The notes beneath the pieces are model-generated. The model saw only the letters and a list, made by a program, of their open reading frames with translations, was not told the DNA's origin and did not search any database. DNA of 64,000 nucleotides from Candidatus Omnitrophota bacterium (GTDB lineage Bacteria > Omnitrophota > Gorgyraeia > Ghiorseimicrobiales > Ghiorseimicrobiaceae): positions 31,207 through 95,206 of the forward strand of contig JAUXSB010000003.1 of the NCBI GenBank assembly GCA_030681595.1, read 5' to 3'. Made by a program: the position numbers and the translations under genes. How positions within the stretch are numbered: the stretch's first letter is position 1; the number at the start of each line of letters is the position of its first letter. This document shows positions 35,594 through 61,674 of the stretch, one piece after another.

Positions 35594-35607
35594 AAATTAC
35601 CTTTGCA

Positions 35608-35794
35608 CTTATGGCTTTGGCTAAATTGAAAGCCAAACCATTGCCTTGTGGCTTATGGCTTTGGCTATATTGAAAGCCAAACCATTGCCTTGTGGCTTAT
35701 GCCTTTGGCTATATTGAAAGCCAAACCATTGCCTTGTGGCTTATGCCTTTGGCTATATTGAAAGCCAAACCATTGCCTTACCGGCTTATGCCTT
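35608..35794. repeat. Tandem array, 4.2 copies of a 44-bp hairpin unit
   Basis: The unit is CTTATGSCTTTGGCTATATTGAAAGCCAAACCATTGCCTTGTGG. Copies lie at 35608, 35652, 35696 and 35740, with a partial copy at 35785. Each unit contains the hairpin TGGCTTTGGCT-atattgaa-AGCCAAACCA. Confidence 0.9.
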
Positions 35795-36032
35795 ATTCAA
35801 ATTTACTATTTTAATTATATCAACTTTCTTCAAATATTGCAACCCAATAAATTACCGCGAGCCTTATTATAGTTATAGCACATAAATTAACTACTGGCGC
35901 AGAAAATAACGCCTTATACATAAGCGCATTAAGGTTACAAGACATTCTGCTATGCAGGCAACACTTCAACTTATCTTTCCGCATTAATGCTCATTTAAAT
36001 ATAATGCTGCTTATGAAAATATTAATGCAGTA

Positions 36033-36956
36033 TCACAAAAACCAGGTTATAAGCGCTCCGGAAAACATCCAAAAGGCAAAGGGCGTAGTTTTCTGAATAG
36101 TTCTTTCGGAATAAAAATCAATTATTTTCTTAAGCATAGGGAACAGCAGCATAATCAATACGGTCGATATGAATGTATTTTTTATTTCAAAAATAAATCT
36201 TTTATCCGTATACACAAAGTATAGTATCAAAAAAACAAAAGTAATCATTATAAATTTGGTATTTTTTTTAAACATTTTGGAAAGCTTTTTAAAAAGCAAT
36301 AGGGCGATCAACATCAAAATATTCTGATCGGGTAAAATCCTACCGATTAAATTTTGTAATGCTTGTCGTAAAACCTTAAAAGCTAGAAAAAGAGTAAGAA
36401 AGCCAAAAAAGACTTTGCTTAATTCAATTTTATTAAATTTACTCTTCTCTTTAATTAATTCTGCGGTTTGCTTCTTTAATTTCCCAAAATTAAATTTTTT
36501 AATAAAGTAGGCGCATGACCGCAAAAAAAGATAAGCTGTCGCCGGTATAAAAATACTTAACAACAATGAAAAGGAAGCAAAGTAATAATTAAAATAAACC
36601 CGAGAATACTGCCCCATTGGAATAAGGGCAGAATAGCAGATAAAAAGCTTCGCATCCCCTGCTCCCCACATCTTAAAATACCATAGCGAATATGCCACAA
36701 TTATACTCGTTATTAAATTAACGCACCATTTGTCAAAATTATGGACTAAACCAGAAGATATTTCTGCTAAAACATTATTCGTAATTCCGCTTAAGGACAG
36801 ATAATAAATAATCCAGGAGGATAAATATAAAACACATGCGTAGATTAATCCTATTAAAATCCACTTATTTCTGATTTTAGAATACCTTAAGTCTTCGTAA
36901 GACGTAACAAGCCCGATAAAGAAAATTATCGGCAAAAAAATAATATTATTAATCAT
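36033..36956 (-). CDS. A24-family (prepilin-peptidase/CpaA-TadV-like) aspartic membrane peptidase with an extended C-terminal TM region
   Basis: 307 aa and polytopic. The first Asp motif is YEDLRYSKIRNKW (D-x5-I-x-N) and the second is MWGAGDAKLF (GxGDxKL). Confidence 0.6.
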   Translation of the reverse strand: MINNIIFLPIIFFIGLVTSYEDLRYSKIRNKWILIGLIYACVLYLSSWIIYYLSLSGITNNVLAEISSGLVHNFDKWCVNLITSIIVAYSLWYFKMWGAGDAKLFICYSALIPMGQYSRVYFNYYFASFSLLLSIFIPATAYLFLRSCAYFIKKFNFGKLKKQTAELIKEKSKFNKIELSKVFFGFLTLFLAFKVLRQALQNLIGRILPDQNILMLIALLLFKKLSKMFKKNTKFIMITFVFLILYFVYTDKRFIFEIKNTFISTVLIMLLFPMLKKIIDFYSERTIQKTTPFAFWMFSGALITWFL

Positions 36957-37214
36957 ATAACTAATAAGCTTTGTTAAAATTTATTTTATTTATTCTTGTT
37001 TCTAAATTATTACTATTACAACACATTGGCAACAAACAAGTTATGTATTTTTTAAAGCATCGTTAATAAATAAGGTTATATCTTTGCAACGCATAACCAT
37101 AACGTAACGCATTGCATTACAATAAGTTGTGAAAGAAGATTTCGCAAGATGCCCCTATTTTTAATAAAGCCCTGTAATAAATATTCCTCACGTAATTTTT
37201 TCTGTATTAAAGAT

Positions 37215-37700
37215 TCAAATATTATTGGATAATATCTTTTCCGAAATTTCTAACACCAAGCTTTTCAACTTAGAAAAATTGTTAGCATTTAATTTTAGAT
37301 ATTTATAGTAATATATAACGTAATCATGGTTAAAAAGTATGCCGTTACTCAGTTTATATTCGCCAAGATGCCGTAAAGCGAAAGCTAAATCTATCCAGTT
37401 ATCAAGATTGTCGGGGTTACGAGAAATGGATTTTAAAAAATATTTCTTCGCCTGAGAAAAGTCTTCGGCGATATAATAAATATATCCTGCAAGCGAAAAG
37501 ATTGTTTCTATCTGTTCTTCTTTTAACCAATTTTTAATTTTCCCTTGCAACATTCTTAATTTCTCGGGAGAAGAAAAATAAAGAATGGATAACCGGTAGA
37601 AAAGCGAATCTATCCGTTCAATATAGCCAGAAATATAATTTGTCTGACGAGGCGAGAGATCAAAACCAGCAATATTTTTAAATTCGTTACATATATCCAT
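37215..37700 (-). CDS. TPR-repeat protein
   Basis: 161 aa. AGYIYYIAEDFSQAKKYFLKSISRNPDNLDNWIDLAFALRHLGEY fits the TPR consensus. Confidence 0.55.
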   Translation of the reverse strand: MDICNEFKNIAGFDLSPRQTNYISGYIERIDSLFYRLSILYFSSPEKLRMLQGKIKNWLKEEQIETIFSLAGYIYYIAEDFSQAKKYFLKSISRNPDNLDNWIDLAFALRHLGEYKLSNGILFNHDYVIYYYKYLKLNANNFSKLKSLVLEISEKILSNNI

Positions 37701-38770
37701 TAATTAAACTGAACAATAAAAGGTATCTCCGGGGCAAAATTTCTCCTCTGCCATCTGATCCTTCTTATCAACTTGCCATTATTCAAAATCACAACATCTC
37801 TATCCTCTAAAAATACACAGTTTCCTCTTTTTAAGTCACTTTCATAAAGGTTATTTTCAGACATTTGACCAATGAAGTAGACATCTTTATAATGTAACTT
37901 ACCATTTTTAATCTCGCCATCAAAGGCATAAAATTTTATTTCATAAAAGATTAATAGGGGTAGTTTTAAATGCCTATCAATCTTTTCTACAAATTCCGGC
38001 TCTTCCGCATAAATCGCTTTTTTTATTTTTCTGGCCAATTCTATCGTAGCCTTACAATTATAAGCACAAGGCATATGATAGATATAGGAATAGGTAATAT
38101 CCCTAGTACAAGGATTAGATAAATAATGGTATCTATTTTTCTTGGTATTCTTAAATGCTTCATAAAGATAACTATACTTATACCAGTTATTAAACTGTCG
38201 AAAAAAACCGACACAACATTTTGGATATCCAAGGTTATATCCAAATTTAAAAATATCTATACCAGGCCTATCAATTACTCTATGTTTGATTATTAAAGGA
38301 TACCATCCATCTCTAAAACAATTTTCTAAGTTACCTTTTGATTTAGCAATAAATACATGAACAAGGCCATCTTTGCTTGACCCATTAAACGGTAAGCCAA
38401 ATGCATAAGTCGTAGTTAGGCGTTTACCACCTATAACATTTTTTAAAATATTTTTCTTTTTTGACATCCTAAAAACAGTATCGGTCCTTACAATAAGACC
38501 ATAGCGTTTGCATATTCTACGGTATTCATCATATCTATCCACCCTTACCCAGTCGTCCATCGCTGGCTTTATCTCTTTCACTGTAGCCATTATATTCACT
38601 AACTGCCCACTGCCCTTAATCTGGACAAATTCTCTACAGAATTTTTTTGGATAATAGGATTCAAACATTATAGATATAATGAAACTCCATGGCTTTACAG
38701 ACGCAGCACCCAAGAACCGCCTGCGCTTCGTTTTAGCTATGCCTGAAAGCAGGCATAGCTGCGACATCAC
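37700..38770 (-). CDS. Hypothetical protein (unknown family) in radical SAM cluster
   Basis: 356-aa ORF tightly packed with its neighbours (shared ATGA-type junction at 37700). It contains GYPKCCVGFF and MPCAYNCKAT. The start is uncertain, with alternative Met codons downstream. Confidence 0.5.
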   Translation of the reverse strand: MMSQLCLLSGIAKTKRRRFLGAASVKPWSFIISIMFESYYPKKFCREFVQIKGSGQLVNIMATVKEIKPAMDDWVRVDRYDEYRRICKRYGLIVRTDTVFRMSKKKNILKNVIGGKRLTTTYAFGLPFNGSSKDGLVHVFIAKSKGNLENCFRDGWYPLIIKHRVIDRPGIDIFKFGYNLGYPKCCVGFFRQFNNWYKYSYLYEAFKNTKKNRYHYLSNPCTRDITYSYIYHMPCAYNCKATIELARKIKKAIYAEEPEFVEKIDRHLKLPLLIFYEIKFYAFDGEIKNGKLHYKDVYFIGQMSENNLYESDLKRGNCVFLEDRDVVILNNGKLIRRIRWQRRNFAPEIPFIVQFN

Positions 38771-38794: not shown

Positions 38795-39766
38795 TTAAGC
38801 GCCTTTTATCGGCCTGAATTCTTCAGAGCCATATGCCTTTAAATAATGGACATATGGCCCAAGACAAAGGCTATTGAATACGCACCCACTACAAGAAACC
38901 ACCTTCCTTCTAGAGGTATATTTAAATGAATCATCTTTATTCTTTACACTCACCAAATAACCTCTGGAAATTTTTAATATTACGCATCTGAACATCTCCT
39001 TGTCAATCTTATTAATTATGCAAAATGGCATAGAGAGAAAATATCTTGCAAAATATATAAATAAATCAGAATGATAACGATATCTTTTTGTATACAACTC
39101 TACGGCTTTTTTAAAATACCTTATGACCTTTGTATATCTGGGCATTAGAAAATGGTAAAAAATAAGGGAAGCGGCATGCGGCCTATAATGATCTATCATA
39201 AAACGCATTCCAGGAAACTGTTCAATTTTAAGCCTTACCAAAGATGGAATATCCGCATAATTTTGCGTTAAAAAAATACCGTTTAATGTTACGGGTAAAT
39301 CAAACCGAGATAAATTGTTCAATGCCTCCATCAAATCAACAAATGAACCTGGAGAATTAGTTATCGCATCGTTTATCTTTGCAGTAGATCCGTAAATAGG
39401 AACATGAAATCCATTAGCTCCTGCCGTTACGACTTTCTTTAGAAAAACAAAATTCTTTAATTTTCTTCCCGTGGTTTGAACGGTGATATTTGTAAAAGAT
39501 AATTTACGCGCAAAAACTAATAAATCAATAATGGATGAACGGTTCAGTATTTCGTTACCCGTAAAGCATATCTTGCGAAAACCAAGCGACTTCGCAAGGC
39601 GTATCCTACATTTAATTGTATTTATATCATCCGGCTCATCATGGGTAAGTTGTTGCGTATTTTTTCCATGTACTAATCGGCTGTTCTGACAAAACACGCA
39701 AGAGTTATCGCATTGCGAATCTAATACTAAAATTATTTCATCGTTGTTTTGGAGAATAGGCATCAC
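38795..39766 (-). CDS. Small radical SAM protein, paralog S13 (divergent)
   Basis: It has CDNSCVFC (CxxxCxxC), with FTGNEIL in place of GGEP. The C-terminal signature is CSGCVFNSLCLGPYVHYLKAYGSEEFRPIK. Confidence 0.7.
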   Translation of the reverse strand: MMPILQNNDEIILVLDSQCDNSCVFCQNSRLVHGKNTQQLTHDEPDDINTIKCRIRLAKSLGFRKICFTGNEILNRSSIIDLLVFARKLSFTNITVQTTGRKLKNFVFLKKVVTAGANGFHVPIYGSTAKINDAITNSPGSFVDLMEALNNLSRFDLPVTLNGIFLTQNYADIPSLVRLKIEQFPGMRFMIDHYRPHAASLIFYHFLMPRYTKVIRYFKKAVELYTKRYRYHSDLFIYFARYFLSMPFCIINKIDKEMFRCVILKISRGYLVSVKNKDDSFKYTSRRKVVSCSGCVFNSLCLGPYVHYLKAYGSEEFRPIKGA

Positions 39767-40650
39767 TTAACAGGTTTAAACTCTTGCCACCCAAAAAACT
39801 CAGGATATTCACGCCAGGGTCCCTCGCAAATTTTGAAATATTTGCATTCTTCACACTTCGGCCCTTTAAGTTTTCCATGTTCTCTGCGCCACTGGTTAAA
39901 ATTGGTTATCGGTTTAATATCAAATACCTTGGTTTCAGGAATAATCGCTTCACTAGCACAATTGGCATATTCGCTTAAAAAACAATACGGTATGGCTTCA
40001 GTTTTTGGCATTTTTTTCTTCCTAATGCCAATTTCCAGGCCGCGTTTTAAATAAAGAATAATATCTTTTTTCTGCGGTATTAGCCAACTATGATTCGCTA
40101 ATGCGTTTCCTAAAATATGAGGAAAGGAAAAACGATATTCAACCACCCCTAAGCCAACTAACATCAAAGCAATCTTAGGTAAAAAGCGGTAATTCAATGC
40201 AGTAATAACTGTATTAGTAAATACTACGCGACCAGAAGAAAGGAGATGCTTAATACCACAAATCGTCTGAGCGAAACTTCCCCTCGCTCCCGTATGGCTA
40301 TCATGCAACTCAGCATTATGTCCATGTACCGATATAGTAAAAAGACTTGCACCTGCCTCTATCATTTTTTTACAAAAATCTTTATACCTAAACATTCTTC
40401 CGTTGCTTTGAATATGAACAATATATCCTAACTTTTTAGAATATCTTACCAAGTCTATGATATCAAAACGTATTGTAGGTTCTCCACCTGTAAAAATTAC
40501 CTCTTTATAACTATCTTTCGAATCAGCTAAAATAGTTTCTATCTGTGAGCGCGCCATATCGTTGTAGATTTTGCGCTTGTTACCTTGGACACAAAAACTA
40601 CAGTGGTTATTACATCTAAAACTAATTTTTATATCCAGCCTCTTATGCAT
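39763..40650 (-). CDS. Small radical SAM protein, paralog S12
   Basis: It has RCNNHCSFCVQG, FTGGEPT, SVHGHNAELHD and IPYCFL. The C-terminus is CEECKYFKICEGPWREYPEFFGWQEFKPVK. Its closest paralog is 55967-56872. Confidence 0.85.
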   Translation of the reverse strand: MHKRLDIKISFRCNNHCSFCVQGNKRKIYNDMARSQIETILADSKDSYKEVIFTGGEPTIRFDIIDLVRYSKKLGYIVHIQSNGRMFRYKDFCKKMIEAGASLFTISVHGHNAELHDSHTGARGSFAQTICGIKHLLSSGRVVFTNTVITALNYRFLPKIALMLVGLGVVEYRFSFPHILGNALANHSWLIPQKKDIILYLKRGLEIGIRKKKMPKTEAIPYCFLSEYANCASEAIIPETKVFDIKPITNFNQWRREHGKLKGPKCEECKYFKICEGPWREYPEFFGWQEFKPVK

Positions 40651-40681
40651 ACATCTATCCTAACCTTAATTATCCGTTGTC

Positions 40682-41614
40682 TTACGGCTCGCTTTTAACA
40701 TGTTTTATTGTCTCTTCTTTGGAAACAAAAACAGCGTATAGTTCTTGCGAAGAAAAATATTTATCCATCGCATAAAGGCCGGGACATATTTCATTCAAAA
40801 AACAAACACTACAACACTCAACCTTGCCATATGACCATCCTCTTTGGACTTTAAGGCCCTTTTCATCTAAGAAATAAATCGCGCGCTTCTCTCTCTTTAT
40901 TATTTTTCTGGCTTCCGTAGAACAATGTGCAAAATCAGCCATGTAACATAAGGGTACGCGTTCCGCCCTAAAAGTTCTCTTTTGCTCGGCTAAAAAATGC
41001 ATTGCCCTATTGAGCTCTAATTCAAAATCTATCAGTCGGGGAATCGTATCGGGATTTTCTGATGCGCGGTTCATCGAAGGGTCAATATTATTCCAGATAA
41101 AATGGCGAATAAACGGATATCTATTCACAAGCCACGCCGTAATTCTGCTTAAATGATCGGCATTATATTTATTAATCACGGTAATAACATCAACCTGCAA
41201 ATTTAACTTTTTGGCATTGTTAAGCGTTTTTTTAATGTTACATAAAGAATCCTTGTTCTCAGTAAGAAAACCCTGAATATCAGCACTATCAGAGTAGATG
41301 GATAAATTGATATGGTTTAATCCTGCCTCTGCCAATGAGTTAATATATTTAAAGTCGGCTGTTTTTTGGCCATTCGTTATTATTCTGACTGGAAAATTTT
41401 TGTTTGTTGCATACGCGATCAATTCAATGAGATCTGGATATAGGGTCGGCTCTCCTCCGCTTAAAATAACCCCATCGCAACCTATCTTGACATAATAATC
41501 AATTAACTCCTTAGCTTTCTTAAGAGATATGGTTTTATCAAACGACGGATTAGAACAAAATCTGCATTTTTGATTACAAATACGCGTAACCTGTATATAA
41601 GCTAATTCGGCCAT
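40682..41614 (-). CDS. Small radical SAM protein, paralog S11
   Basis: It has ICNQKCRFCSNP, LSGGEPTLYP and VPLCYM. The C-terminus is CCSVCFLNEICPGLYAMDKYF. Confidence 0.85.
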   Translation of the reverse strand: MAELAYIQVTRICNQKCRFCSNPSFDKTISLKKAKELIDYYVKIGCDGVILSGGEPTLYPDLIELIAYATNKNFPVRIITNGQKTADFKYINSLAEAGLNHINLSIYSDSADIQGFLTENKDSLCNIKKTLNNAKKLNLQVDVITVINKYNADHLSRITAWLVNRYPFIRHFIWNNIDPSMNRASENPDTIPRLIDFELELNRAMHFLAEQKRTFRAERVPLCYMADFAHCSTEARKIIKREKRAIYFLDEKGLKVQRGWSYGKVECCSVCFLNEICPGLYAMDKYFSSQELYAVFVSKEETIKHVKSEP

Positions 41615-54977: not shown

Positions 54978-55977
54978 ATGATTTATGTTTTATGGAAAAA
55001 TGCAGGTCTGCCTTATAATTCATGCCCTGATTTCGTTTCCTGTCCGTACTGATAATGCATGGATACATAACAAAATCATTTTTATCGCAAATTTTAATAA
55101 GATCTTCAATCGCGTTAAGATGAGATCTTAAATTCCAGCATTTCAAAAAATTAAAAATCTCTTTGTACGAGCTACTGAAATCGGAAATATTGTTTTCGTA
55201 AATTTTTAATATTTTTAACGGAATAAGGTGGCCGCCCTTATCAAAACGGTATGCGATTTGGTAAAAAGCGGACTTTTCTTTTGTGAATTTTTCAAAGAAA
55301 TTTTCAAAATAAGCATACTGCCGCCAAGTAAGCAGGTCTCTATACCTGCCTAAACTCAAATGCTTTGAATAATTGTATATTTTAATGCTGTATGTTGAAT
55401 CGCAAAAAAAATCTATCCCAATAACACTTATTAAATAATCTTTTAAGGCAGTAATAATATCTTCGCCATTAAAATTTATAATTTTACTAATAGTTGAAAT
55501 TTTGTTAAGCCTGCTCTTTTGAGAATCAGAAATGAGTAATTCTTCTAAGTATATTTTTAATCTTGGGTATGAGCCTATAGGCCAATCCATGCCGAATGTG
55601 GTCTGATGTTTATCCCTAACTTTTATCGCATTGAAAATCTCTTTAAGCTTGAGTGTGTTGTAGCGTGTTTTATAATTATAATTCAATACGTTAAAAGCAT
55701 TAATTATTTTTTTATCAAATGATTGTTTTTCATTATAATTGTTGTAGGTAAACCTAAAATTTGAAATATGGTCATACCCTTTGATTAAAGAAAAGGAAAA
55801 GTCAAATTTAAAATGCGCCGGGACATCTCTATGGTTGGAATGTTTTATTATCGAATCTTTTACTGCGCTTACAACTTTTTTATTAATGCTACCGCCTATC
55901 TCGCCTAACAGATAGCCTATAATATTCGAGATGGATAAAAAAAATAAACGATTTCTATTTATTGCGCTATCGCCCAT
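54970..55977 (-). CDS. Hypothetical protein (unknown family) embedded between radical SAM genes
   Basis: 335-aa ORF that overlaps both neighbours (8 and 11 nt). It has no Cys motif and no feature I recognise. Confidence 0.5.
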   Translation of the reverse strand: MGDSAINRNRLFFLSISNIIGYLLGEIGGSINKKVVSAVKDSIIKHSNHRDVPAHFKFDFSFSLIKGYDHISNFRFTYNNYNEKQSFDKKIINAFNVLNYNYKTRYNTLKLKEIFNAIKVRDKHQTTFGMDWPIGSYPRLKIYLEELLISDSQKSRLNKISTISKIINFNGEDIITALKDYLISVIGIDFFCDSTYSIKIYNYSKHLSLGRYRDLLTWRQYAYFENFFEKFTKEKSAFYQIAYRFDKGGHLIPLKILKIYENNISDFSSSYKEIFNFLKCWNLRSHLNAIEDLIKICDKNDFVMYPCIISTDRKRNQGMNYKADLHFSIKHKSYV

Positions 55978-56872
55978 ATTTTTTTAGGACAGGGACAAAT
56001 TCTGACCAGCCAAATTTTTCAGGATACTCTTTCCACGGCCCTTCACAAATTTTATAATGATAGCAATGCCTGCAAGACAAATTCTTCGCTTTTCCTTCTT
56101 TTTTACGTACTTTCGTAAAATCATCGATAACCTTTCCAAGGTCATAAATTATTGTTTCGGGTATAATCTTTTCAGCGATATAATCTTCATAGCCTTGCAT
56201 GAAACAATAAGGTATTGCTTCTGTCATGACTTTTTTATTAGCCTTGATACCTATACCCAAACCTTCCTTAACATAGGGCATAACCATTGAAATTCTCGGC
56301 ACAACAGAATAAAAATTATCGCCTGCCGAACCGGCAGCATGGACAAATGCAAATTGAAATTGGTCAACGCCAAGTTTTACCAAAAGCTCAGCGATTTGCG
56401 CTAGATGCCTATAATTAGGTTTAGTAATAACCGTGTTAGTGATTACAGTTTGATTTCGTTGTTTTAAATTTATTATTCCCGCGACAGTCTCGTTAAAGCT
56501 GCCGGCAGAAGAAGTCAAATAATCATGGACTTGGGCGATATGCCCATGGAGTGCCGGAGAAAATTCATTCGCCCCTGCGGCAATAATTTCATCGCAAAAC
56601 TTTTTATAATAGAATATCCTGCCGTTAGTTTGTATTTGGATAATTTTAAATTTCAATCTTTTGGCATGGCCAACCAAATCTAAAATATCGCTTCGTATTG
56701 TAGGCTCGCCTCCGGTAAAAACAACCCCATCGCAGTCTCGCCTGGCATCCTCTAAAATCTTCTTTATAGCAAGAGTATCTTTATCGCTTTGCAGGTGTCT
56801 CTTCTTGCCCTGGACGCAAAACCGGCAATGGTTATTGCAAGCAAATCCGATTTTAATATCAACTCTTTTCAT
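55967..56872 (-). CDS. Small radical SAM protein, paralog S1
   Basis: It has ACNNHCRFCVQG, FTGGEPT, ALHGHIAQVHD and IPYCFM. The C-terminus is CRHCYHYKICEGPWKEYPEKFGWSEFVPV. Confidence 0.85.
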   Translation of the reverse strand: MKRVDIKIGFACNNHCRFCVQGKKRHLQSDKDTLAIKKILEDARRDCDGVVFTGGEPTIRSDILDLVGHAKRLKFKIIQIQTNGRIFYYKKFCDEIIAAGANEFSPALHGHIAQVHDYLTSSAGSFNETVAGIINLKQRNQTVITNTVITKPNYRHLAQIAELLVKLGVDQFQFAFVHAAGSAGDNFYSVVPRISMVMPYVKEGLGIGIKANKKVMTEAIPYCFMQGYEDYIAEKIIPETIIYDLGKVIDDFTKVRKKEGKAKNLSCRHCYHYKICEGPWKEYPEKFGWSEFVPVLKKYGR

Positions 56873-57842
56873 TTTTAAGGTAGCGCACGAAAGATGTTAA
56901 AACTTTATCTACTGCCATTGTAGAATCAAAAATCGGCTTAGAGACGCCCTCTTTAATTATTTGCCTAATATTTGCCAAACCGGGAAAATGAGTTTTTATA
57001 AAAGGAAGGCTTCTAACGGACCCGATCTTAAGTTGTTTTCTAAAAGGGGCGAAATATTTAGCCAAAAATAAATTATTTGTGAAAATGTCGCCATTACAGT
57101 CAACGACTAAACCGGCGTTAAATAAAGGAACGGTATTCGTAAAGTCTAAATTCCTAATATAGATATCCATTTTATTTCTGTTCCCTAGTATAAATCTTGC
57201 GATTTTATAAAAATTATTTTTCAACAATTTTATTTTATTTTTATCCCAATAAATAAAATAAGCCGGCAAAAAGTTAAAACGATTAAAACCCAGCTTCAGG
57301 ACATAGATAAAATTATTATAAAATACCTCTGCGGTATTGGGCGCAATAACCATATTTATAGTTACGCGGCCCGGATAAGAAGAAAAGAGTTTGTGTCTAT
57401 TTAAAATTATTGTATCAAACGATTCTTTTTTATTCTTTGTAATCCTATTGCGTAATTGGGTATCTCGATCGCCATCTAAACTTATAATTAATTCTATATC
57501 CCTGTTTGTCTTTAAAAAATCTATGATTTTATTGTTTAATAACGACCCGTTGGTCGTCAGTTGAAATTGAATTTTTTTATGCAAAATTTCCGCTTTTTTT
57601 CTTGCGAATATTATAATATCCCTTAGCAAAGCAAAATTCATTAATGGCTCGCCGCCGGAAAATTTGATTAAACAATTATCGGGCGCGATTTTCAAAAAAA
57701 AATCTACGGATATTATGGCGATATCATAATTTATCTTTGAAAAATCACGTATGGTTGGACAATACCGGCACTGGAAATTACAGCGATGGTTTATTATAAT
57801 TATTAGTTGCGGGGGGAGCGAATTAATATTACCATTGGCCAT
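56859..57842 (-). CDS. Radical SAM enzyme, HxsC-like (no full SPASM Cys set)
   Basis: It has HRCNFQCRYCPT, FSGGEPLMNF and VDCNGDIF. I placed the start at the ATG at 57842 (MANGNINS). This overlaps the precursor stop by 14 nt. The track's longer N-terminus (MAPMAPMAP...) is the HGS-repeat DNA read in another frame. Confidence 0.65.
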   Translation of the reverse strand: MANGNINSLPPQLIIIINHRCNFQCRYCPTIRDFSKINYDIAIISVDFFLKIAPDNCLIKFSGGEPLMNFALLRDIIIFARKKAEILHKKIQFQLTTNGSLLNNKIIDFLKTNRDIELIISLDGDRDTQLRNRITKNKKESFDTIILNRHKLFSSYPGRVTINMVIAPNTAEVFYNNFIYVLKLGFNRFNFLPAYFIYWDKNKIKLLKNNFYKIARFILGNRNKMDIYIRNLDFTNTVPLFNAGLVVDCNGDIFTNNLFLAKYFAPFRKQLKIGSVRSLPFIKTHFPGLANIRQIIKEGVSKPIFDSTMAVDKVLTSFVRYLKNEKS

Positions 57843-58125
57843 GAGAACCATGGGAACTATGGGAGCCATGGGAGCCATGGGAGCCATGCGGAGTGCCCGA
57901 ATTATGCCCTCCTCTGCCGGCTGTAACAAGAGCATTAGCATGGTTATTATGCGAAGCATGGCTGGCAGCCTGGGCAGAATCAGGCTTAAACATCGCGGAT
58001 AAAACAGCTAAAGATATCCCTATCTTAGCGATATCCTTTTTGCTAATTTTACCTTCTTCTCTTAAAAGGAAATCTTTTATTTGCTTCTTGATCCGCGGTA
58101 ACCTACTTTCGTTTTTTTCTTTCAT
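57829..58125 (-). CDS. His-Xaa-Ser repeat peptide (HxsA-like), candidate RiPP precursor
   Basis: 98 aa. The N-terminus is charged (MKEKNESRLPRIKKQIKDFLLREEGKISKKD) and is followed by the hydrophobic segment IAKIGISLAVLSAMF. The C-terminus is ASHASHNNHAN...HNSGTPHGSHGSHGSHSSHGSHGQW. The DNA has 9-bp tandem CATGGCTCC repeats. A G8 tract lies 4 nt upstream of the ATG. Confidence 0.65.
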   Translation of the reverse strand: MKEKNESRLPRIKKQIKDFLLREEGKISKKDIAKIGISLAVLSAMFKPDSAQAASHASHNNHANALVTAGRGGHNSGTPHGSHGSHGSHSSHGSHGQW

Positions 58126-58154: not shown

Positions 58155-58895
58155 CTACTCTACCGGCTGTCTATCGGCTTCTTTAGAAAAACTATCTTTT
58201 GAAGCTGGATAATACTGTTCAAAGAAATTTCTAAAACTTTTGCATTTCTTGCAAACACTCTCATCCCGTGATACGCTGCCTTTACATAACATGCTAAGGT
58301 ATTCATCGCTTATCTCATTACACTTATTAACATCATTAGTTTCCAACGCCTGTATATAATAAACCCTACCGGTGCACTTCTTATCCCCTTTACTGCAATA
58401 CTTAGGGTCTCTAAGCCTAAGCGCCATACAGTCATTTTTCTGGTCCTTACTTATTGAATTATCACACGCAGCAACATCTTGAGCAAAAAAACTGTCCGCT
58501 ACTTTACGGCAATCTACGGCAGTTGGTTTACCTTCCTGTTTCTGGCAGGCCTCCATAAACTTCTGGGTAACAGAACCCATCACAACCAGTTCGCTAAAAA
58601 ATCTGTGGAAACCATAGAAATTACGCCTACATAAATTAGCTTCATCTTTCGATAAATTATTGCATACACTTACGTTATCTCTAGCGGCTGCTAAACACGT
58701 CAGATATGTATCTAAAAAACCCTGCCTTTTCGAATAACCTTCAAATATAACTTTACTTAAATTGTCTATATTAAAATCATTGATTGCTTGTTCCTTGGCA
58801 TTATCTTCGGCCAAAGCATTACAATTATTAAACCCAACTAAAAAGCATCCACCCAACAAAGCTATTACTAAAAACCTGAATATGAAAGTTTTCAT
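58155..58895 (-). CDS. Secreted or lipoprotein-like Cys-rich protein (about 15 Cys)
   Basis: I placed the start at the ATG at 58895 (MKTFIFRFLVIALLGGCF), which forms an ATGA overlap with the upstream stop. It has a signal peptide with a lipobox-like LLGGC. Cys residues are spread throughout, including CKKC. Confidence 0.55.
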   Translation of the reverse strand: MKTFIFRFLVIALLGGCFLVGFNNCNALAEDNAKEQAINDFNIDNLSKVIFEGYSKRQGFLDTYLTCLAAARDNVSVCNNLSKDEANLCRRNFYGFHRFFSELVVMGSVTQKFMEACQKQEGKPTAVDCRKVADSFFAQDVAACDNSISKDQKNDCMALRLRDPKYCSKGDKKCTGRVYYIQALETNDVNKCNEISDEYLSMLCKGSVSRDESVCKKCKSFRNFFEQYYPASKDSFSKEADRQPVE

Positions 58896-60361
58896 AGCGC
58901 CGCCTTTCCTTTCGTGCAATCTTTTACCCAGCGTTCAAATATATTCTTATATTGACTATTCTGTAATTTTTCAAAGAGATAGTCCAAAATCGCGCCGTTA
59001 ATCTTACATCTTCCATTAAAAGGCTGAAATATATTTTTGCTTTCCGTATAATTTAATAAAGGGCACACACCGCAATATGGTTTATAGACACATTGGCTGC
59101 ACTCAGGGATATTATCTAAACAGGAGCTTATACACATCGCCTTAACAGTTGGATGCTCAATTATATTTTTATATGTGTCGGTTTTTACGTTTCCGACCTT
59201 AAATGATTCATCTCCTAGCCTGCTAAGCATCCTGCCTTCGTCGCATGTGTAGATATCACCGTTATAATTATAAGCTACTTGGCCGATACCGGCGCCGCAA
59301 GGAGAGCGCATATCCATATAGCCGGGGTCATAATCAGTAAGTATTTTATATAGGAATATGAACGCCGTCCTCTCGTAAAAATTGCTTCCTTTTAAATTTA
59401 ACTCTAAGATATAATCCAGGGATTCTTTATAAAACTCAATAAATTCTCCCCACGAATACGCGAGGCTATCCGCCTTGGGCGCCAATGCAAATGTGGACAA
59501 GGGACGTAAATGGATACAATCTAATCCACCCTTTATATACTCATCAATAATCTCTTTGGAATGGCCGAAACAACGATTGGTCACCGTCAATAATGCATTT
59601 GGGCGGTGCTTAAAACCCGTTTTTTCAAATTCTATTTTTATCTTCCTAAGCCACTTTACGGTATTGCGGTAGCTATTGATATTCTTATTAAGGCTTACGC
59701 GATTTCTATTATGTATATGTTCCGGGCCATCAAGCGATGTACAAATACTTACGTCATTTTTTATTAAAAATTTTAATATCTCATCTGTTAAACAACTCAA
59801 ATTAGAAACAAGAGAAAGCGTTAATTTTTTTTCTTTATTCTTATTTTTTTTCTTGGCATATTCAATTATAAATTTTACTGTATTAAAATTAAGTAACGGC
59901 TCTCCTCCTTGAAATTCGATAGTAATTTCGGGGGCCGGAAATTCAAAAATTTTATCAACAACAGACTTGGCTGTCGGGATATCCATATCTAAACCGGCCG
60001 TCTTAATGCCTCCGGAGTTAGCTTGACAATAGGCGCATTTGTGGTCGCATCTTAATGTTACCACTATTATATGCAAGCTAGTCCCTCGAGATAAAAAATC
60101 GTGCTTGTTTGCATATTTGGCAATTAACTTATCAAAATCTAATTTATTACGCACAAAACTTTTGTTTATAAGCTCATCGTATTTAACCTCATCCTGCTTC
60201 ATAATCTCGTTAATCTCTCCCTTTATGAAGCTATTAAACCAGCCCGGTTTTAAAAAACAGTATTCTCCTACATCATTAGTGACAAGATAGCTGCCGTTAA
60301 ACCTCTTGAAACGAAAGTATGAAACCGCTTTCTTGTCAATCAAATTTACATCTATAGCCAT
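58892..60361 (-). CDS. Radical SAM/SPASM-domain peptide maturase, HxsB-like
   Basis: 489 aa. An N-terminal ~95-aa extension precedes RCDHKCAYCQA and FQGGEPLLNF. The C-terminal SPASM-type motifs are CGAGIGQ...YTCDEG...CSQCVYKPYCGVCP. Confidence 0.7.
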   Translation of the reverse strand: MAIDVNLIDKKAVSYFRFKRFNGSYLVTNDVGEYCFLKPGWFNSFIKGEINEIMKQDEVKYDELINKSFVRNKLDFDKLIAKYANKHDFLSRGTSLHIIVVTLRCDHKCAYCQANSGGIKTAGLDMDIPTAKSVVDKIFEFPAPEITIEFQGGEPLLNFNTVKFIIEYAKKKNKNKEKKLTLSLVSNLSCLTDEILKFLIKNDVSICTSLDGPEHIHNRNRVSLNKNINSYRNTVKWLRKIKIEFEKTGFKHRPNALLTVTNRCFGHSKEIIDEYIKGGLDCIHLRPLSTFALAPKADSLAYSWGEFIEFYKESLDYILELNLKGSNFYERTAFIFLYKILTDYDPGYMDMRSPCGAGIGQVAYNYNGDIYTCDEGRMLSRLGDESFKVGNVKTDTYKNIIEHPTVKAMCISSCLDNIPECSQCVYKPYCGVCPLLNYTESKNIFQPFNGRCKINGAILDYLFEKLQNSQYKNIFERWVKDCTKGKAAL

Positions 60362-60561
60362 TCTTTATTACTCCATAAGGCATAATTGGCAAACTCGTCA
60401 ACAAATACTTTTTTAAAATCTTGATCAATATCATTTATTTCTACCTGCGTATAGTTTTTAGTATTTTTAATTATAAATTTCGCCAAATGGGCATAAGCCG
60501 AAACTGCCGCTTTAACCGCCCTCCTATTATATAATTTATTATTAAACTTTAGATTCCACAT
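60352..60561 (-). CDS. Small HxsD-like protein (short paralog)
   Basis: 69 aa. ...AVKAAVSAYAHLAKFII...VEINDI...FVDEFANYALW resembles the HxsD pattern, in which a strand-rich N-terminus is followed by an F-x-N-E/D-x-x-D/N-Y-x-L-R-like motif. Confidence 0.4.
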   Translation of the reverse strand: MWNLKFNNKLYNRRAVKAAVSAYAHLAKFIIKNTKNYTQVEINDIDQDFKKVFVDEFANYALWSNKEWL

Positions 60562-60967
60562 TATCTTTTTTTACTTTTTTATTTTTACCGTATTTATCTT
60601 CCCAGGGCACAGCTATCCCAAGCGGATCATCGCGATAATCCAGCTTTTCATCAGAAGAAAACAAATCAAAATTTGAATCCGGCGGAGTAGAGTATAGGGC
60701 ACGGGCAACAACATATTCGCGTATCTTCTTATTATTTTTACTTACTATACACCTTAAAGCAGAATATAATAGTTCATTCATAAAGCTATCTTTCAGTAAC
60801 TCTATTTGCCTATCGGAAAGTTTCTTTTTGGGCTTAAGCGAAACTACCACCTTCTCGTCTTTACCGGCATCTAAATCCAGAAAAAAATAAATAGAATCAA
60901 TAAAAAGATAACACGTGCTTAAAATGGCTTCTAACGGATATATTTTGGTTCTTAGTTCTATTTTCAT
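60542..60967 (-). CDS. HxsD-like protein
   Basis: 141 aa. IYPLEAILSTCYLFIDSIYFFLD...VVVSLKPK...LKDSFMNELLYSALRCIVSKNNKKIREYVVARAL matches my recollection of the HxsD family (LLNDYxLRE-type motif). Confidence 0.55.
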   Translation of the reverse strand: MKIELRTKIYPLEAILSTCYLFIDSIYFFLDLDAGKDEKVVVSLKPKKKLSDRQIELLKDSFMNELLYSALRCIVSKNNKKIREYVVARALYSTPPDSNFDLFSSDEKLDYRDDPLGIAVPWEDKYGKNKKVKKDNVESKV

Positions 60968-61010
60968 GCCTCACCTTTTTTAAAAAGCTAATCTGGATAT
61001 CACTACAATA

Positions 61011-61601
61011 CTATGTTTCACAACACATCATCGATCCGGCTTTAGGCAAAACCATATCCGTACAGCTTGTGCTAGCTGCTGAAGTAGTGCAAGTCCCGCC
61101 TTGCGTAAAAGGTATATAAGACAAGCGTGAAGTGCAACTCTCCCCCGCATCAGTACAGACACCATTATTATTCCAATCGCCGCATTGCATCAACGAAGGA
61201 ACATCATTAGCAGTAAAAGTCATCAGACGACAACCGAGTCCTGCGGCTTGAATTCGCGCAAGCTGAGCAGTCCGAATATTCCAGAAAGTTACAGTATTTG
61301 AGAATGTCGCTCCATCACTAATTCTTATCTCTAAATCATTAGCTCCGGCATCACCGCCGATACCGATTACATCTCCATAACCTGTCCTAACTATGGCGAA
61401 ATTCGGCCACCAAGTAACATCACCAACAGGAAAACCAACCCTAGCTCGTTGCGCTTCAAGGTCTCCGTAAACCCCAAAAGGCGAAGGGTAATAATTAGTG
61501 ATGGTGATATCTTCAGCTTGAGATAAAACAGGGGATGCGGAAAATAAAAGGCAGGAAAAAGAAAAAAGAAAAACAGCAACAATTAATTTTACCTTTTGCA
61601 T
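61011..61601 (-). CDS. Secreted hypothetical protein with Cys-rich C-terminus
   Basis: 196 aa. It has a Sec signal peptide with an LSQA|ED cleavage site and a Thr/Ser/Cys-rich tail ending MMCCET. GC content looks higher than in the neighbouring cluster. Confidence 0.5.
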   Translation of the reverse strand: MQKVKLIVAVFLFSFSCLLFSASPVLSQAEDITITNYYPSPFGVYGDLEAQRARVGFPVGDVTWWPNFAIVRTGYGDVIGIGGDAGANDLEIRISDGATFSNTVTFWNIRTAQLARIQAAGLGCRLMTFTANDVPSLMQCGDWNNNGVCTDAGESCTSRLSYIPFTQGGTCTTSAASTSCTDMVLPKAGSMMCCET

Positions 61602-61674
61602 AAAAGATAATTAGTGATACTTTATGATATAATTTTAATTTACAACTTAAATATACCTCAATTACCCACGGCTG

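What the first reader, a model, noticed from the sequence alone, without database searches (positions are those of the whole stretch)
35600..61650. The cluster looks like a compositional island bounded by repeats
By eye, 36-61 kb is markedly more AT-rich than the flanks. Sampled 60-nt lines give roughly one third G+C inside and about 40-45% outside.

The low-coordinate edge is marked by the 4.2-copy 44-bp tandem array (35608-35794). The high-coordinate edge returns to higher GC at the secreted-protein gene and mtaB. A tRNA-Ser and a tRNA-like fragment lie about 5 kb from the low edge. This is consistent with horizontal acquisition, although I see no integrase or transposase.
Basis: partly seen in the sequence, partly recalled or inferred. 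Interest (0 to 1): 0.4.

Follow-up and report, generated by a model that had tools for sequence, protein, structure and literature searches.

The report
Swapped AT-rich radical-SAM gene cassette

Summary
The GC drop is real: 0.347 inside against 0.42 outside, with computed edges at 35.8 and 61.0-61.6 kb, and it holds at silent sites and in tetranucleotides. The block is one co-directional cassette of 26 genes. It holds a His-Xaa-Ser system (HxsD, HxsD-rel, HxsB, HxsA4) plus 16 further radical SAM genes, in a Candidatus Omnitrophota genome. In relatives the same flanks, mtaB on one side and a small ORF plus yeiH-like gene on the other, are either adjacent (empty site, L169) or separated by different Hxs/rSAM cassettes (L086; CG11, about 36.7 kb). 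Against the close relative L086, fourfold sites are 52-73% identical in flank genes but at random level (20-30%) in HxsD and HxsB. The cassette therefore did not co-diverge with its flanks and was replaced. About 57% of the GC drop comes from amino-acid composition, which is typical of this family; about 43% is synonymous. "Bounded by repeats" fails. The 44-bp array is a dispersed host hairpin element inserted in the 5' leader of the conserved small ORF, nothing matches it at the other edge, and no integrase is present. The tRNA-Ser is conserved flank, and no tRNA-like fragment was found. This is an ordinary kind of island with unusual cargo.

The parts
61675..62997 (-). mtaB, the conserved high-side flank gene
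   Evidence: Pfam UPF0004 plus Radical_SAM. It is 85-86% identical to L086, 65% to L169 and 57-58% to CG11. Nucleotide homology to L086 runs through it.
61650..61678 (-). Promoter-like site (TTGACA-17-TATATT, 11/12) overlapping the mtaB stop codon and facing into the cassette
   Evidence: Consensus scan only.
61011..61601 (-). First cassette gene: a secreted Cys-rich 196-aa protein with a conserved N-terminal TNYYPSPxGxY motif and a variable C-terminus
   Evidence: No Pfam or NCBIfam match. GC3 is 0.33. The first ~56 aa are 75% identical to L086 and the rest is unrelated; nucleotide homology to L086 stops at 61467. The motif is also present in the CG11 paralogs.
60542..60967 (-). HxsD
   Evidence: TIGR03976 scores 55.4 bits against a cut-off of 50.
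60352..60561 (-). HxsD-like protein (69 aa)
   Evidence: NF038315 scores 64.8 bits against a cut-off of 41.
58892..60361 (-). HxsB, a radical SAM/SPASM maturase
   Evidence: TIGR03978 scores 490 bits against a cut-off of 370. It is 61% identical to L082/L083/L089, 56% to L090, 54% to L086 and 38-39% to CG11.
58155..58919 (-). Secreted or lipoprotein-like Cys-rich 254-aa protein, a recurrent cassette member
   Evidence: No family match. It is 40% identical to L082 and 23% to L086.
57829..58125 (-). HxsA4-type His-Xaa-Ser repeat peptide (98 aa, ending ...TPHGSHGSHGSHSSHGSHGQW); the 9-bp tandem repeat at 57838-57893 encodes the repeats
   Evidence: ORF and sequence. NF038313 scores 60.7 bits against a cut-off of 55. 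Tandem repeat. One-unit indel relative to the Logan assembly.
56859..57842 (-). Radical SAM gene immediately after hxsA (start re-set to 57842; no SPASM match)
   Evidence: Pfam Radical_SAM. NCBIfam gives only sub-threshold matches to peptide maturases. CxxxCxxC is intact. It is 52% identical to L082 and has no ortholog in L086.
55967..56872 (-). The most conserved HxsC4-like radical SAM gene
   Evidence: NF038332 scores 166 bits (cut-off 500) and TIGR03977 scores 104 bits (cut-off 267.9). More than 3000 homologs were found, the best at 90% and 70-71% identity.
54970..55977 (-). 335-aa protein of unknown family
   Evidence: No Pfam or NCBIfam match. No homolog in any fetched locus.
38795..54977 (-). 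Run of 14 radical SAM genes. Eleven are HxsC-like: 54030-54977, 53114-54082, 50801-51742, 47995-48912, 47064-47990, 44731-45693, 42644-44734 (a double domain), 41619-42644, 40682-41614, 39763-40650 and 38795-39766. Two are HemN-like (51720-53114, 45697-47055). One is a B12-binding rSAM (48923-50455).
   Evidence: Pfam, NCBIfam. The paralogs are 20-35% identical to each other, with one pair at 50%. All keep CxxxCxxC.
37700..38770 (-). DUF483-like 356-aa protein, a recurrent cassette member
   Evidence: Weak PF04467 match. It is 46% identical to the CG11 cassette protein.
37215..37700 (-). Small TPR protein
   Evidence: Pfam TPR families, weak.
36033..36956 (-). Last cassette gene: a polytopic membrane protein with a weak prepilin-peptidase (A24) match
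   Evidence: PF01478 scores 24.3 bits, below the cut-off of 26.5. Homologs lie inside the L085 and CG11 cassettes.
35909..35927 (-). Terminator-like hairpin followed by a T run, downstream of the last cassette gene
   Evidence: Consensus scan only.
35814..35842 (-). Promoter of the flanking small ORF (TTGCAA-17-TATAAT); the conserved low-side flank starts here
   Evidence: Consensus scan, 10/12. Both hexamers and the preceding GGT are conserved in L169 and L170 (alignment A2).
35608..35794 (+). 44-bp x 4.2 tandem array with one hairpin per unit, inserted between that promoter and the small ORF's ribosome-binding site; a dispersed host element, not an island boundary repeat
   Evidence: Tandem repeat. 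Single copies at 8594 and 15255. RNA fold of -73.2 kcal/mol, z=-4.2. Absent from the homologous leader in L169 and L170.
35357..35593 (-). Conserved 78-aa ORF, the low-side flank
   Evidence: 82% identical to the L169 68-aa ORF and 77% to the CG11 73-aa ORF.
34315..35364 (-). yeiH-like membrane protein (PF03601), the low-side flank
   Evidence: Pfam. 77% identical to L169 and 64% to CG11.
30838..30927 (-). tRNA-Ser(CGA); conserved flank, not associated with the block
   Evidence: ARAGORN and Rfam. Homology to CG11 runs through lptD up to this position.

Best explanation
The AT-rich block is an accessory gene cassette of about 25.8 kb (window ~35846-61674; 26 genes in one direction, running from a promoter-like site that overlaps the mtaB stop codon to a terminator-like hairpin at 35927-35909). 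It occupies a replaceable slot between two conserved chromosomal genes, mtaB and a small ORF followed by a yeiH-like gene, in a clade of Candidatus Omnitrophota. Its cargo is an HxsA4-type His-Xaa-Ser system: a secreted protein, HxsD, HxsD-rel, HxsB, a Cys-rich secreted protein and the HxS-repeat peptide. This is extended by 16 more radical SAM genes, giving 17 rSAM genes and 18 domains in all, 12 of them divergent HxsC-like paralogs. Shown: the slot is empty in one relative and holds different, homologous but very divergent Hxs/rSAM cassettes in others; and the cassette did not co-diverge with its flanks. Inferred: cassettes are exchanged by homologous recombination in the conserved flanks or cassette ends, as at capsule or O-antigen loci and core-gene-flanked defence hotspots, and not by an integrase. 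Also inferred: the present cassette came from a lower-GC lineage, because its nearest known relative sits in a genome of about 0.37 GC at another locus. The low GC has two layers. About 57% is the Cys/Asn/Tyr/Phe/Lys-rich, Ala/Glu/Val/Gly-poor composition typical of this gene family in most hosts. About 43% is a synonymous AT shift, which is the real signature of foreign or non-equilibrated DNA. The 44-bp array next to the low edge is an unrelated dispersed hairpin element that expanded in the 5' leader of the flanking small ORF.
For: Composition is covered (see the observation check). The organism and source are an Omnitrophota MAG and Logan SRR13727519. Empty site: L169 has rsmE, mtaB (65%), a 57-nt spacer, a 68-aa ORF (82%) and yeiH-like (77%). 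Alternative cassettes between the same flanks: in CG11 contig PCWA01000089.1, mtaB ends at 7305 and the small ORF starts at 43997, so 36.7 kb of different Hxs, rSAM and glycosyltransferase genes lie between them. L086, whose MtaB is 85-86% identical, has the same head but a different tail (GT28, DUF2334, amine oxidase). L090 and L004 also carry Hxs genes after mtaB. Silent sites, window against L086: fourfold identity is 0.73 in Memo, 0.52 in RsmE and 0.73 in MtaB, against 0.30 in HxsD and 0.20 in HxsB. Incongruence: the window's HxsB, 254-aa protein, post-A rSAM and HxsC4-like protein are 61/40/52/70% identical to L082/L083, which sit at a different locus with flank GC 0.37. The corresponding values for L086 are 54/23/absent/absent. 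No MtaB outside the L086/L088 lineage exceeds 65% in the 5.8-billion-protein database. Breakpoints: 86% nucleotide identity to L086 runs from mtaB to 61467 and then stops; on the low side the conserved promoter lies at 35842-35814. The same cassette type occurs in unrelated neighbourhoods in other Omnitrophota and in a Parcubacteria genome. Canonical hxsB lies on 410 plasmids, 325 of them conjugative. The cassettes at this slot are AT-shifted at GC3 in all three genomes: by 9.5 points in the window, 6.9 in CG11 and about 3.6 in L086.
Against: There is no mobility gene, no att-like repeat and no donor identified. The nearest cassette is only 61-70% identical in protein, so the transfer is not recent on a nucleotide scale, or its source is unsampled. 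Hxs-type cassettes sit beside mtaB in lineages spanning 55-86% MtaB identity, so the locus itself is old and L169 may be a secondary deletion rather than the ancestral state. Across 19 metagenomic HxsB loci the cluster's GC3 tracks host GC3 (slope 1.03, no offset) and only GC1 and GC2 are shifted. Much of the AT-richness is therefore intrinsic to the proteins. That survey used a crude ORF caller. The relatedness of the L082 genome to this one is inferred only from the absence of a closer MtaB in the database, and a MAG may simply lack the gene. The other end of the L086 cassette was out of reach.
Confidence: 0.75

Rival explanations
1. The cluster is an ancient, vertically inherited resident. 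An Hxs/rSAM cluster has sat beside mtaB since the ancestor of this clade, it evolves very fast, L169 lost it by deletion, and its AT-richness is an intrinsic property (protein composition, low expression) rather than a sign of transfer.
For: Hxs genes follow mtaB in L086, L090, L004 and CG11. These cassettes share a core: the secreted-protein motif, HxsD, HxsD-rel, HxsB and HxsA, plus A24-like and DUF483-like genes in CG11. Family-wide, the AT shift lies in GC1 and GC2 and not in GC3, and cluster GC tracks host GC. 57% of the drop here is amino-acid composition. With RsmE as the yardstick, the ratio of HxsB to flank protein divergence is similar for L086 and CG11.
Against: Fourfold sites are at random level in HxsB and HxsD but 52-73% identical in three flank genes against L086, which faster protein evolution cannot produce. 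Gene content downstream of hxsA is unrelated between the window and L086. The window's cassette is closer to one at a different locus in a lower-GC genome. GC3 and fourfold-site GC are significantly low here and in CG11.
Confidence: 0.15
2. The block is a classical integrative genomic island, inserted by a site-specific recombinase at a tRNA gene and bounded by direct repeats (att sites).
For: The block is compositionally deviant, a tRNA-Ser lies within 5 kb, and a tandem repeat sits at one edge. CG11 has an integrase plus HTH_17, but on the far side of rsmE-mtaB.
Against: No integrase, transposase or excisionase occurs anywhere in the 64 kb. The edges share no direct repeat of 10 nt or more. 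The tRNA lies 4.8 kb away behind four conserved flank genes that are syntenic in CG11. The 44-bp unit is dispersed in the host genome and lies inside the conserved leader of the small ORF.
Confidence: 0.03
3. The block is a metagenome assembly or binning chimera, with an AT-rich contig from another organism joined into this scaffold.
For: The source is a MAG. An independent short-read assembly of the same sample breaks inside the 44-bp array, at about window 35754.
Against: The independent Logan contig spans the high junction (Memo, rsmE, mtaB and the cassette) with 100% identity apart from one 9-bp repeat-unit indel. The same mtaB-to-Hxs junction occurs in L086/L087, L090 and CG11. The junction from cassette to small-ORF promoter to yeiH occurs in CG11 on a single contig. 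Tetranucleotide usage inside the block is still correlated with the flanks (r = 0.91).
Confidence: 0.03

Closest known systems
Canonical HXS antiphage system (HxsD-HxsB-HxsC-HxsA; Li et al. 2026, PMC13128918; families defined by Haft & Basu 2011, cited from my own knowledge)
   Same: HxsD, HxsB and an HxS-repeat HxsA all score above their NCBIfam cut-offs. The peptide has an N-terminal export-like segment, and the system belongs to the accessory, horizontally mobile gene pool: hxsB occurs on 410 plasmids.
   Different: The paper reports 99.7% of systems in Pseudomonadota and more than 99.8% with four genes in the order D-B-C-A. Here the host is Omnitrophota. The peptide is a short HxsA4 type with no peptidoglycan-binding domain detected. 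No gene reaches the HxsC or HxsC4 cut-off. The gene order is D, D-rel, B, x, A, rSAM, C-like, and 16 additional rSAM genes plus secreted and membrane proteins are attached. Antiphage function is untested here.
Core-gene-flanked variable hotspots and cassette loci (defence-island hotspots; O-antigen and capsule loci), cited from my own knowledge of the literature
   Same: Conserved flanking core genes, alternative gene sets between them, an empty variant, no integrase, lower GC than the genome, and divergence in the cassette far exceeding that in the flanks.
   Different: All occupants seen so far are variants of one system type (Hxs/rSAM) rather than a mix of unrelated systems. The clade is uncultivated, so recombination is inferred and not observed.
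tRNA-associated integrative genomic islands and ICEs
   Same: A compositional island that is present or absent among relatives.
   Different: It has no recombinase, no att repeats and is not adjacent to the tRNA.
REP/BIME-like dispersed intergenic hairpin repeats (for the 44-bp array), cited from my own knowledge
   Same: A short hairpin-forming unit found at several intergenic sites and tandemly amplified at one of them.
   Different: The sequence is unrelated to known REPs. It was seen at only three sites in this window, it was not found in any fetched relative, and its function and genome-wide copy number are unknown.

Membership tests
Integrative genomic island (tRNA/integrase/att type) | Encodes a site-specific recombinase (integrase) | tested here: not met
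   Pfam scans of all ORFs of at least 100-120 aa across the window found no integrase, transposase or excisionase.
Integrative genomic island (tRNA/integrase/att type) | Inserted at or next to a tRNA or tmRNA gene | tested here: not met
   The only tRNA (30838-30927) lies 4.8 kb away, separated from the block by lptD, ROK, yeiH-like and the small ORF, which are syntenic in CG11.
Integrative genomic island (tRNA/integrase/att type) | Flanking direct repeats (attL/attR) | tested here: not met
   The two edges share no direct word of 10 nt or more. The best direct 29-mer match is at chance level (63% of shuffles reach it). A 21/29 inverted match was reached by only 1 of 200 shuffles, but it is AT-rich promoter-like sequence.
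Integrative genomic island (tRNA/integrase/att type) | Compositional deviation from the host genome | tested here: met
Core-gene-flanked variable cassette locus (hotspot) | The same conserved flanking genes in related genomes | tested here: met
   Memo/AMMECR1, rsmE and mtaB lie on one side, and the small ORF, yeiH-like, ROK, lptD and tRNA-Ser on the other, in L169, L086 and CG11.
Core-gene-flanked variable cassette locus (hotspot) | Different gene content between the flanks in different genomes, including an empty state | tested here: met
   The interval is 57 nt in L169, 25.8 kb here and 36.7 kb in CG11, and L086 has a different tail.
Core-gene-flanked variable cassette locus (hotspot) | Cassette divergence discordant with flank divergence | tested here: met
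   Fourfold-site identity is 0.52-0.73 in flank genes against 0.20-0.30 in cassette genes, window against L086. There is also protein-level incongruence with L082 and L090.
Core-gene-flanked variable cassette locus (hotspot) | Recombination breakpoints in the conserved flanks or cassette ends | tested here: inconclusive
   Nucleotide identity of 86% to L086 extends 135 nt into the first cassette gene and then stops. The low-side breakpoint lies at the conserved promoter.
His-Xaa-Ser (HXS) system | HxsA: a peptide or protein with tandem His-Xaa-Ser repeats | tested here: met
   The ORF at 57829-58125 scores 60.7 bits on NF038313 (HxsA4), above the cut-off of 55, and carries five HGS/HSS units plus earlier SHASH.
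His-Xaa-Ser (HXS) system | HxsB radical SAM/SPASM maturase | tested here: met
   TIGR03978 scores 490 bits against a cut-off of 370.
His-Xaa-Ser (HXS) system | HxsD small protein | tested here: met
   TIGR03976 scores 55.4 bits against 50, and the HxsD-like model NF038315 scores 64.8 against 41.
His-Xaa-Ser (HXS) system | HxsC radical SAM partner at equivalog level | tested here: not met
   The best single-domain paralog (55967-56872) scores 104 bits on TIGR03977 (cut-off 267.9) and 166 bits on NF038332 HxsC4 (cut-off 500). The double-domain gene 42644-44734 scores 187 and 217 bits over the whole protein, also below both cut-offs. All 12 HxsC-like genes are sub-threshold.
His-Xaa-Ser (HXS) system | Four-gene operon in the order D-B-C-A | tested here: not met
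   The cassette has 26 genes in the order secreted protein, D, D-rel, B, Cys-rich protein, A, rSAM, C-like and onward. The paper reports more than 99.8% of systems as four-gene.
His-Xaa-Ser (HXS) system | Blocks phage DNA entry (antiphage function) | not testable with these tools
   This was shown only for the E. coli system (PMC13128918).

The most novel reading that the evidence does not exclude
The interval between mtaB and the yeiH-like gene is a long-lived hypervariable slot in an Omnitrophota clade, dedicated to giant Hxs-derived cassettes. Similar cassettes occur in other Omnitrophota and in Patescibacteria. In these cassettes a single exported HxS-repeat peptide and accompanying secreted Cys-rich proteins are served by a dozen or more divergent radical SAM enzymes. 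On this reading the cassettes are envelope-acting defence (or host-interaction) systems under diversifying selection, which drives cassette turnover. This would be a far larger and more elaborate form of HXS immunity than the four-gene proteobacterial operon, in ultra-small bacteria that are themselves thought to be host-dependent.
Probability: 0.3. Interest if true: 0.7.

Novelty: new variant of a known kind. Interest (0 to 1): 0.45.

Why it matters
As a genomic island this is an ordinary phenomenon, but here it is unusually well resolved. The analysis gives both breakpoints, an empty site, alternative occupants and silent-site evidence of replacement, all in an uncultivated phylum where such population-level events are rarely documented. 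It also carries a methodological caution. More than half of the GC drop is protein composition that this gene family shows in most hosts, so GC alone would have overstated how foreign the block is, and the nearby repeat and tRNA were red herrings. The cargo is the more interesting part. The HXS system was shown in 2026 to block phage DNA entry and was described as essentially proteobacterial and four-gene. This locus and its relatives show a widespread, much larger Omnitrophota/Patescibacteria form with up to 17 or more radical SAM genes, which behaves like an exchangeable cassette. That makes both its function and the chemistry of so many paralogous rSAM enzymes directly testable.

Tried and rejected
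- **Polysaccharide cluster.** My first guess from the ORF sizes was a polysaccharide or O-antigen cluster. Pfam rejected it.
- **EF-G.** I guessed that 8680-10800 was EF-G. It is an H+-pyrophosphatase.
- **GTDB scan with MtaB.** The best species representative was only 59% identical, and most Omnitrophota loci shared no synteny downstream of mtaB. This scan could not give an empty-site test. The protein-database searches with MtaB and YeiH succeeded instead.
- **Flanking repeats.** I found no shared direct repeat. The 29-nt inverted match at 35794-35822 and 61625-61653 (21/29; reached by 1 of 200 shuffles) sits at both edges, but it is AT-rich promoter-like sequence. I do not regard it as an att site or terminal inverted repeat.
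- **tRNA-like fragment.** It was not found by three scans.
- **The 44-bp element in relatives.** It was not found in any fetched locus.
- **Survey of 80 metagenomic HxsB loci.** This used a home-made ORF caller. Only 19 loci had usable flanks and some frames are probably wrong, so the 'no GC3 shift family-wide' result is tentative. It conflicts in part with the three same-slot genomes, which do show GC3 shifts.
- **L001 identity check.** My first check gave a spurious 63% because of a 9-bp indel. This was resolved.
- **rSAM gene count.** Earlier notebook entries and working text said about 20 rSAM genes. The correct count is 17 genes and 18 domains (note).
- **Not attempted.** I did not try structure prediction or a formal phylogeny.

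Full report
**1. The observation**

A sliding GC profile shows 0.40-0.46 from 1 to 35 kb, 0.30-0.37 from 35 to 61 kb, and 0.42 again after 61 kb. Overall, GC is 0.347 for 35601-61650, against 0.421 to the left and 0.413 to the right. Non-overlapping 2-kb windows give 0.345+/-0.019 (n=12) inside and 0.422+/-0.017 (n=18) outside, with no overlap and Welch p=6e-10. The best two-breakpoint segmentation of 100-bp bins is 35801-61000. It explains 23.9% of the variance, against at most 2.7% in 100 permutations.

The shift is present in every gene of the block:

| Measure | Inside | Flanks | p |
|---|---|---|---|
| GC3 (24 against 31 genes) | 0.332+/-0.021 | 0.427+/-0.041 | 3e-9 |
| GC1 | 0.385 | 0.483 | 6e-9 |
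| GC2 | 0.328 | 0.346 | barely different (0.02) |
| GC at fourfold sites | 0.416 | 0.493 | 1e-5 |

The correlation of GC-corrected tetranucleotide usage with the flanks is 0.90-0.955 for flank windows and 0.76-0.87 inside. GC skew does not change.

The 44-bp array of 4.2 copies at 35608-35794 and the tRNA-Ser(CGA) at 30838-30927 are both real. A 'tRNA-like fragment' was not found by ARAGORN, by Rfam at gathering scores, or by Rfam at E<=1. The secreted-protein gene 61011-61601 has a high overall GC because of GC2 (0.51), but its GC3 is 0.33, so it belongs to the block.

**2. What the block contains**

All ORFs from 28 to 64 kb are on the minus strand. Reading in the direction of transcription, from high to low coordinates, the block contains:

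- a secreted Cys-rich 196-aa protein (61011-61601);
- HxsD (TIGR03976, 55.4 bits against a cut-off of 50);
- an HxsD-like 69-aa protein (NF038315, 64.8 against 41);
- HxsB (TIGR03978, 490 against 370);
- a Cys-rich secreted 254-aa protein;
- a 98-aa HxsA4-type peptide ending ...TPHGSHGSHGSHSSHGSHGQW (NF038313, 60.7 against 55). The 9-bp tandem repeat at 57838-57893 encodes its repeats. The long ORF first listed there (56859-57959) is a mis-extended radical SAM gene that really starts at 57842;
- that radical SAM gene;
- an HxsC4-like radical SAM gene (55967-56872);
- an unknown 335-aa protein;
- fourteen more radical SAM genes: eleven HxsC-like (one a double domain), two HemN-like and one B12-binding;
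- a DUF483-like protein, a small TPR protein and a membrane protein with a weak A24-peptidase match.

In all there are 26 genes, 17 of them radical SAM (18 domains), and every one keeps an intact CxxxCxxC motif. The 12 HxsC-like genes are old paralogs, 20-35% identical to each other with one pair at 50%. None reaches the NCBIfam cut-off for HxsC or HxsC4.

No integrase or transposase is present here or anywhere else in the window. The flanks are ordinary core genes: NiFe hydrogenase, H+-PPase, CTP synthase, a chemotaxis operon, lptD, a ROK kinase, mtaB and rsmE.

**3. Organism and relatives**

The flanking MtaB is 100% identical to a protein of an NCBI Candidatus Omnitrophota MAG (307-kb contig) and to a Logan assembly of SRR13727519. 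The best GTDB species representative is only 59% identical, and most Omnitrophota have nothing similar downstream of mtaB. The large protein database yielded closer relatives: MtaB at 89%, 86% and 65% identity, and the yeiH-like protein at 77% and 64%.

**4. The synteny test**

- **Empty site.** L169 (Logan SRR22388050, 4.3 kb) carries rsmE, mtaB (65%), a 57-nt spacer, a 68-aa ORF (82% to the window's 78-aa ORF) and the yeiH-like gene (77%). There is no block.
- **A different occupant in a close relative.** L086 (ENA ERZ21828306, 218-kb contig; MtaB 85-86%) has Memo/AMMECR1, rsmE and mtaB, followed by a secreted protein, HxsD, HxsD-rel, HxsB (54%), a 267-aa protein (23%) and an HxsA-like peptide. 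After that come unrelated genes: GT28, rSAM/SPASM, DUF2334, an rSAM on the other strand and an amine oxidase.
- **A third occupant.** On the single CG11 Omnitrophica contig PCWA01000089.1, mtaB (57-58%) ends at 7305 and the small ORF (77%) starts at 43997. The small ORF is followed by yeiH-like, ROK, lptD and the tRNA-Ser region. The 36.7 kb between them holds two secreted paralogs, an HxsC4-like gene, HxsD, HxsD-rel, HxsB (38-39%), an HxsA-like peptide, an A24-like gene, a DUF483-like gene (46%), and many rSAM, glycosyltransferase and aminotransferase genes.
- **Further cases.** L090 (MtaB 55%) and L004 (MtaB 55%) also have Hxs genes directly after mtaB.

The slot is therefore old and the occupants differ.

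**5. Breakpoints**

On the high side, homology with L169 and CG11 ends at the 3' end of mtaB. With L086, 86% nucleotide identity continues 135 nt into the first cassette gene (to 61467) and then stops. A promoter-like site (TTGACA-17-TATATT, 11/12) overlaps the mtaB stop codon.

On the low side, blastn homology with both L169 and CG11 begins at window 35598. A three-way alignment shows that the small ORF's promoter, GGTTGCAA-N17-TATAAT, is conserved in the window (35842-35814), in L169 and in CG11. Only the window has about 195 nt, the four 44-bp units, inserted between this promoter and the ribosome-binding site. A terminator-like hairpin at 35927-35909 follows the last cassette gene.

**6. 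The repeats**

The 44-bp unit also occurs as single diverged copies at 8594 and 15255, in intergenic gaps of the normal-GC flank. Each unit forms a hairpin: the four-unit RNA folds at -73.2 kcal/mol with z=-4.2. The element lies inside the conserved leader of the small ORF. It is a dispersed, REP-like host element, not an island terminus.

The two edges share no direct repeat of 10 nt or more. One 21/29 inverted match lies at both edges and was reached by 1 of 200 shuffles, but it is AT-rich promoter-like sequence and I give it no weight. An independent short-read assembly breaks inside the array, at about 35754.

**7. Vertical or horizontal**

Between the window and L086, fourfold-degenerate sites are 73% (Memo), 52% (RsmE) and 73% (MtaB) identical in flank genes. 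They are 30% (HxsD) and 20% (HxsB) identical in cassette genes, which is the random level. Neighbouring genes inherited together should show similar silent divergence. The cassettes are therefore much older alleles than the split of these two genomes, and at least one was replaced.

Consistent with this, the window's HxsB, 254-aa protein, post-A rSAM and HxsC4-like protein are 61/40/52/70% identical to those of L082/L083/L089. That cassette sits beside smpB in a genome with flank GC 0.37. The values for L086 are 54/23/absent/absent. L090, a distant relative by its flanks, has an HxsB as similar to the window's (56%) as that of L086. No MtaB outside the L086/L088 lineage exceeds 65% in the database. 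The L082 host is therefore probably more distant than L086; this is an inference, because a MAG can lack the gene.

The same cassette architecture occurs in different neighbourhoods in other Omnitrophota and in a Parcubacteria genome. Canonical hxsB is common on conjugative plasmids.

**8. What the low GC means**

Recoding the cassette's own proteins with the flank's codon preferences predicts a coding GC of 0.381, against 0.349 observed and 0.425 for the flanks. So 57% of the drop is amino-acid composition (more C, N, Y, F, K; less A, E, V, G) and 43% is synonymous.

In 19 metagenomic HxsB loci with usable flanks, the cluster is lower than its flank in GC1 (-6.8 points, 18 of 19 loci) and GC2 (-3.0 points, 17 of 19) but not in GC3 (p=0.54; slope 1.03 against host GC3). 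The protein-composition component is thus a family trait. That survey relied on a crude ORF caller.

The three cassettes at the mtaB slot do show GC3 deficits: 9.5 points in the window, 6.9 in CG11 (p=4e-4) and about 3.6 in L086. L085 shows about 10 points. I read the synonymous component as non-equilibrated, imported DNA. The window's large deficit suggests it is the more recently replaced of the window/L086 pair; this is an inference.

**9. How it most likely works**

- **Shown:** a slot bounded by conserved genes, with alternative occupants and an empty state, and discordant silent-site divergence.
- **Inferred:** cassettes are exchanged by homologous recombination using the conserved flanks and the conserved cassette head. 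The signal-peptide and TNYYPSPxGxY region of the first gene is shared by all occupants. No element-encoded mobility is involved.
- **The cargo:** by homology, an exported HxS-repeat peptide matured by HxsB, HxsD and further rSAM enzymes. In E. coli the four-gene HXS system blocks phage DNA entry (PMC13128918). Whether the 26-gene form does the same is untested. Failing the HxsC and operon-architecture tests means it should not be filed as a canonical HXS system.

**10. Comparison and novelty**

As an island it is a new member of a familiar kind, a core-gene-flanked variable cassette locus. The cargo is a new variant of a known kind. The 2026 paper describes HXS as 99.7% Pseudomonadota and more than 99.8% four-gene. 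NCBIfam has HxsA4 and HxsC4 models, but I found no paper describing these giant Omnitrophota/Patescibacteria forms.

**Verdict**

Noticed in passing
window 57838-57893 (hxsA) against L001 ~7890-7960: The Logan assembly of the same sample is identical to the window over 12.3 kb except for one 9-bp indel, which is exactly one His-Gly-Ser unit of HxsA. This is either repeat-number heterogeneity in the population or an assembly ambiguity.
   Followed up: partly
window 8594-8637 and 15255-15298 (also the 7-bp x 4.9 tandem repeat at 8548-8581): Single diverged copies of the 44-bp hairpin unit lie in intergenic gaps 51 and 138 nt upstream of the next minus-strand gene. One of them is adjacent to a separate CAAGCTG tandem repeat. 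This looks like a REP-like dispersed element of this genome, with unknown function.
   Followed up: partly
window 61011-61601; L086 11325-11831; L171 7324-7947 and 7969-8535; L082 5480-5980: Every cassette begins with one or two small secreted proteins that share a signal peptide and a TNYYPSP(F/Y)G(V/I)Y motif but have unrelated C-terminal halves. No family matches them.
   Followed up: partly
L171 3141-4557 (CG11 contig PCWA01000089.1): An HTH_17 gene and a phage-type integrase lie immediately upstream of AMMECR1-rsmE-mtaB. The Memo half of the Memo/AMMECR1 fusion seen in the window's genome and in L086 is missing there. This is possibly a separate integration event on the other side of the slot.
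   Followed up: no
window 42644-44734: A 696-aa protein made of two complete HxsC-like radical SAM domains, each with CxxxCxxC. Relatives carry still larger fusions, up to about 1290 aa with several rSAM domains, or rSAM fused to glycosyltransferase (L082, L084, L170).
   Followed up: no
window 61675-62997: The mtaB ORF as listed (440 aa) carries about 21-30 N-terminal residues that are absent from all relatives, which are 403-425 aa long and match from residue ~31. The true start is probably downstream.
   Followed up: no
window ~35754: The 30-kb Logan contig that carries mtaB and the cassette ends inside the 44-bp array. The low junction therefore rests on the NCBI MAG contig and on the homologous arrangement in CG11. 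The copy number of 4.2 may be uncertain.
   Followed up: partly
window 54970-55977: A 335-aa protein sits in the middle of the rSAM run. It has no Pfam or NCBIfam match and no homolog in any of the related cassettes fetched.
   Followed up: no
L085 (Parcubacteria GCA_030631305.1, DAOVLK010000001.1): A candidate-phyla-radiation genome carries the same cassette type, with at least 12 Pfam-annotated rSAM genes within about 16 kb and still continuing at the locus end. Its GC is 0.29 against 0.36 in the flanks, and its HxsA has ten consecutive SHG units.
   Followed up: partly
L005 (PCWB01000016.1) 4588-6600: The H+-pyrophosphatase (window 8680-10800) is 82% identical in a relative whose MtaB is only 54% identical. 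In that relative it lies just 2 kb from mtaB, so the gene order around mtaB has been rearranged among Omnitrophota.
   Followed up: no
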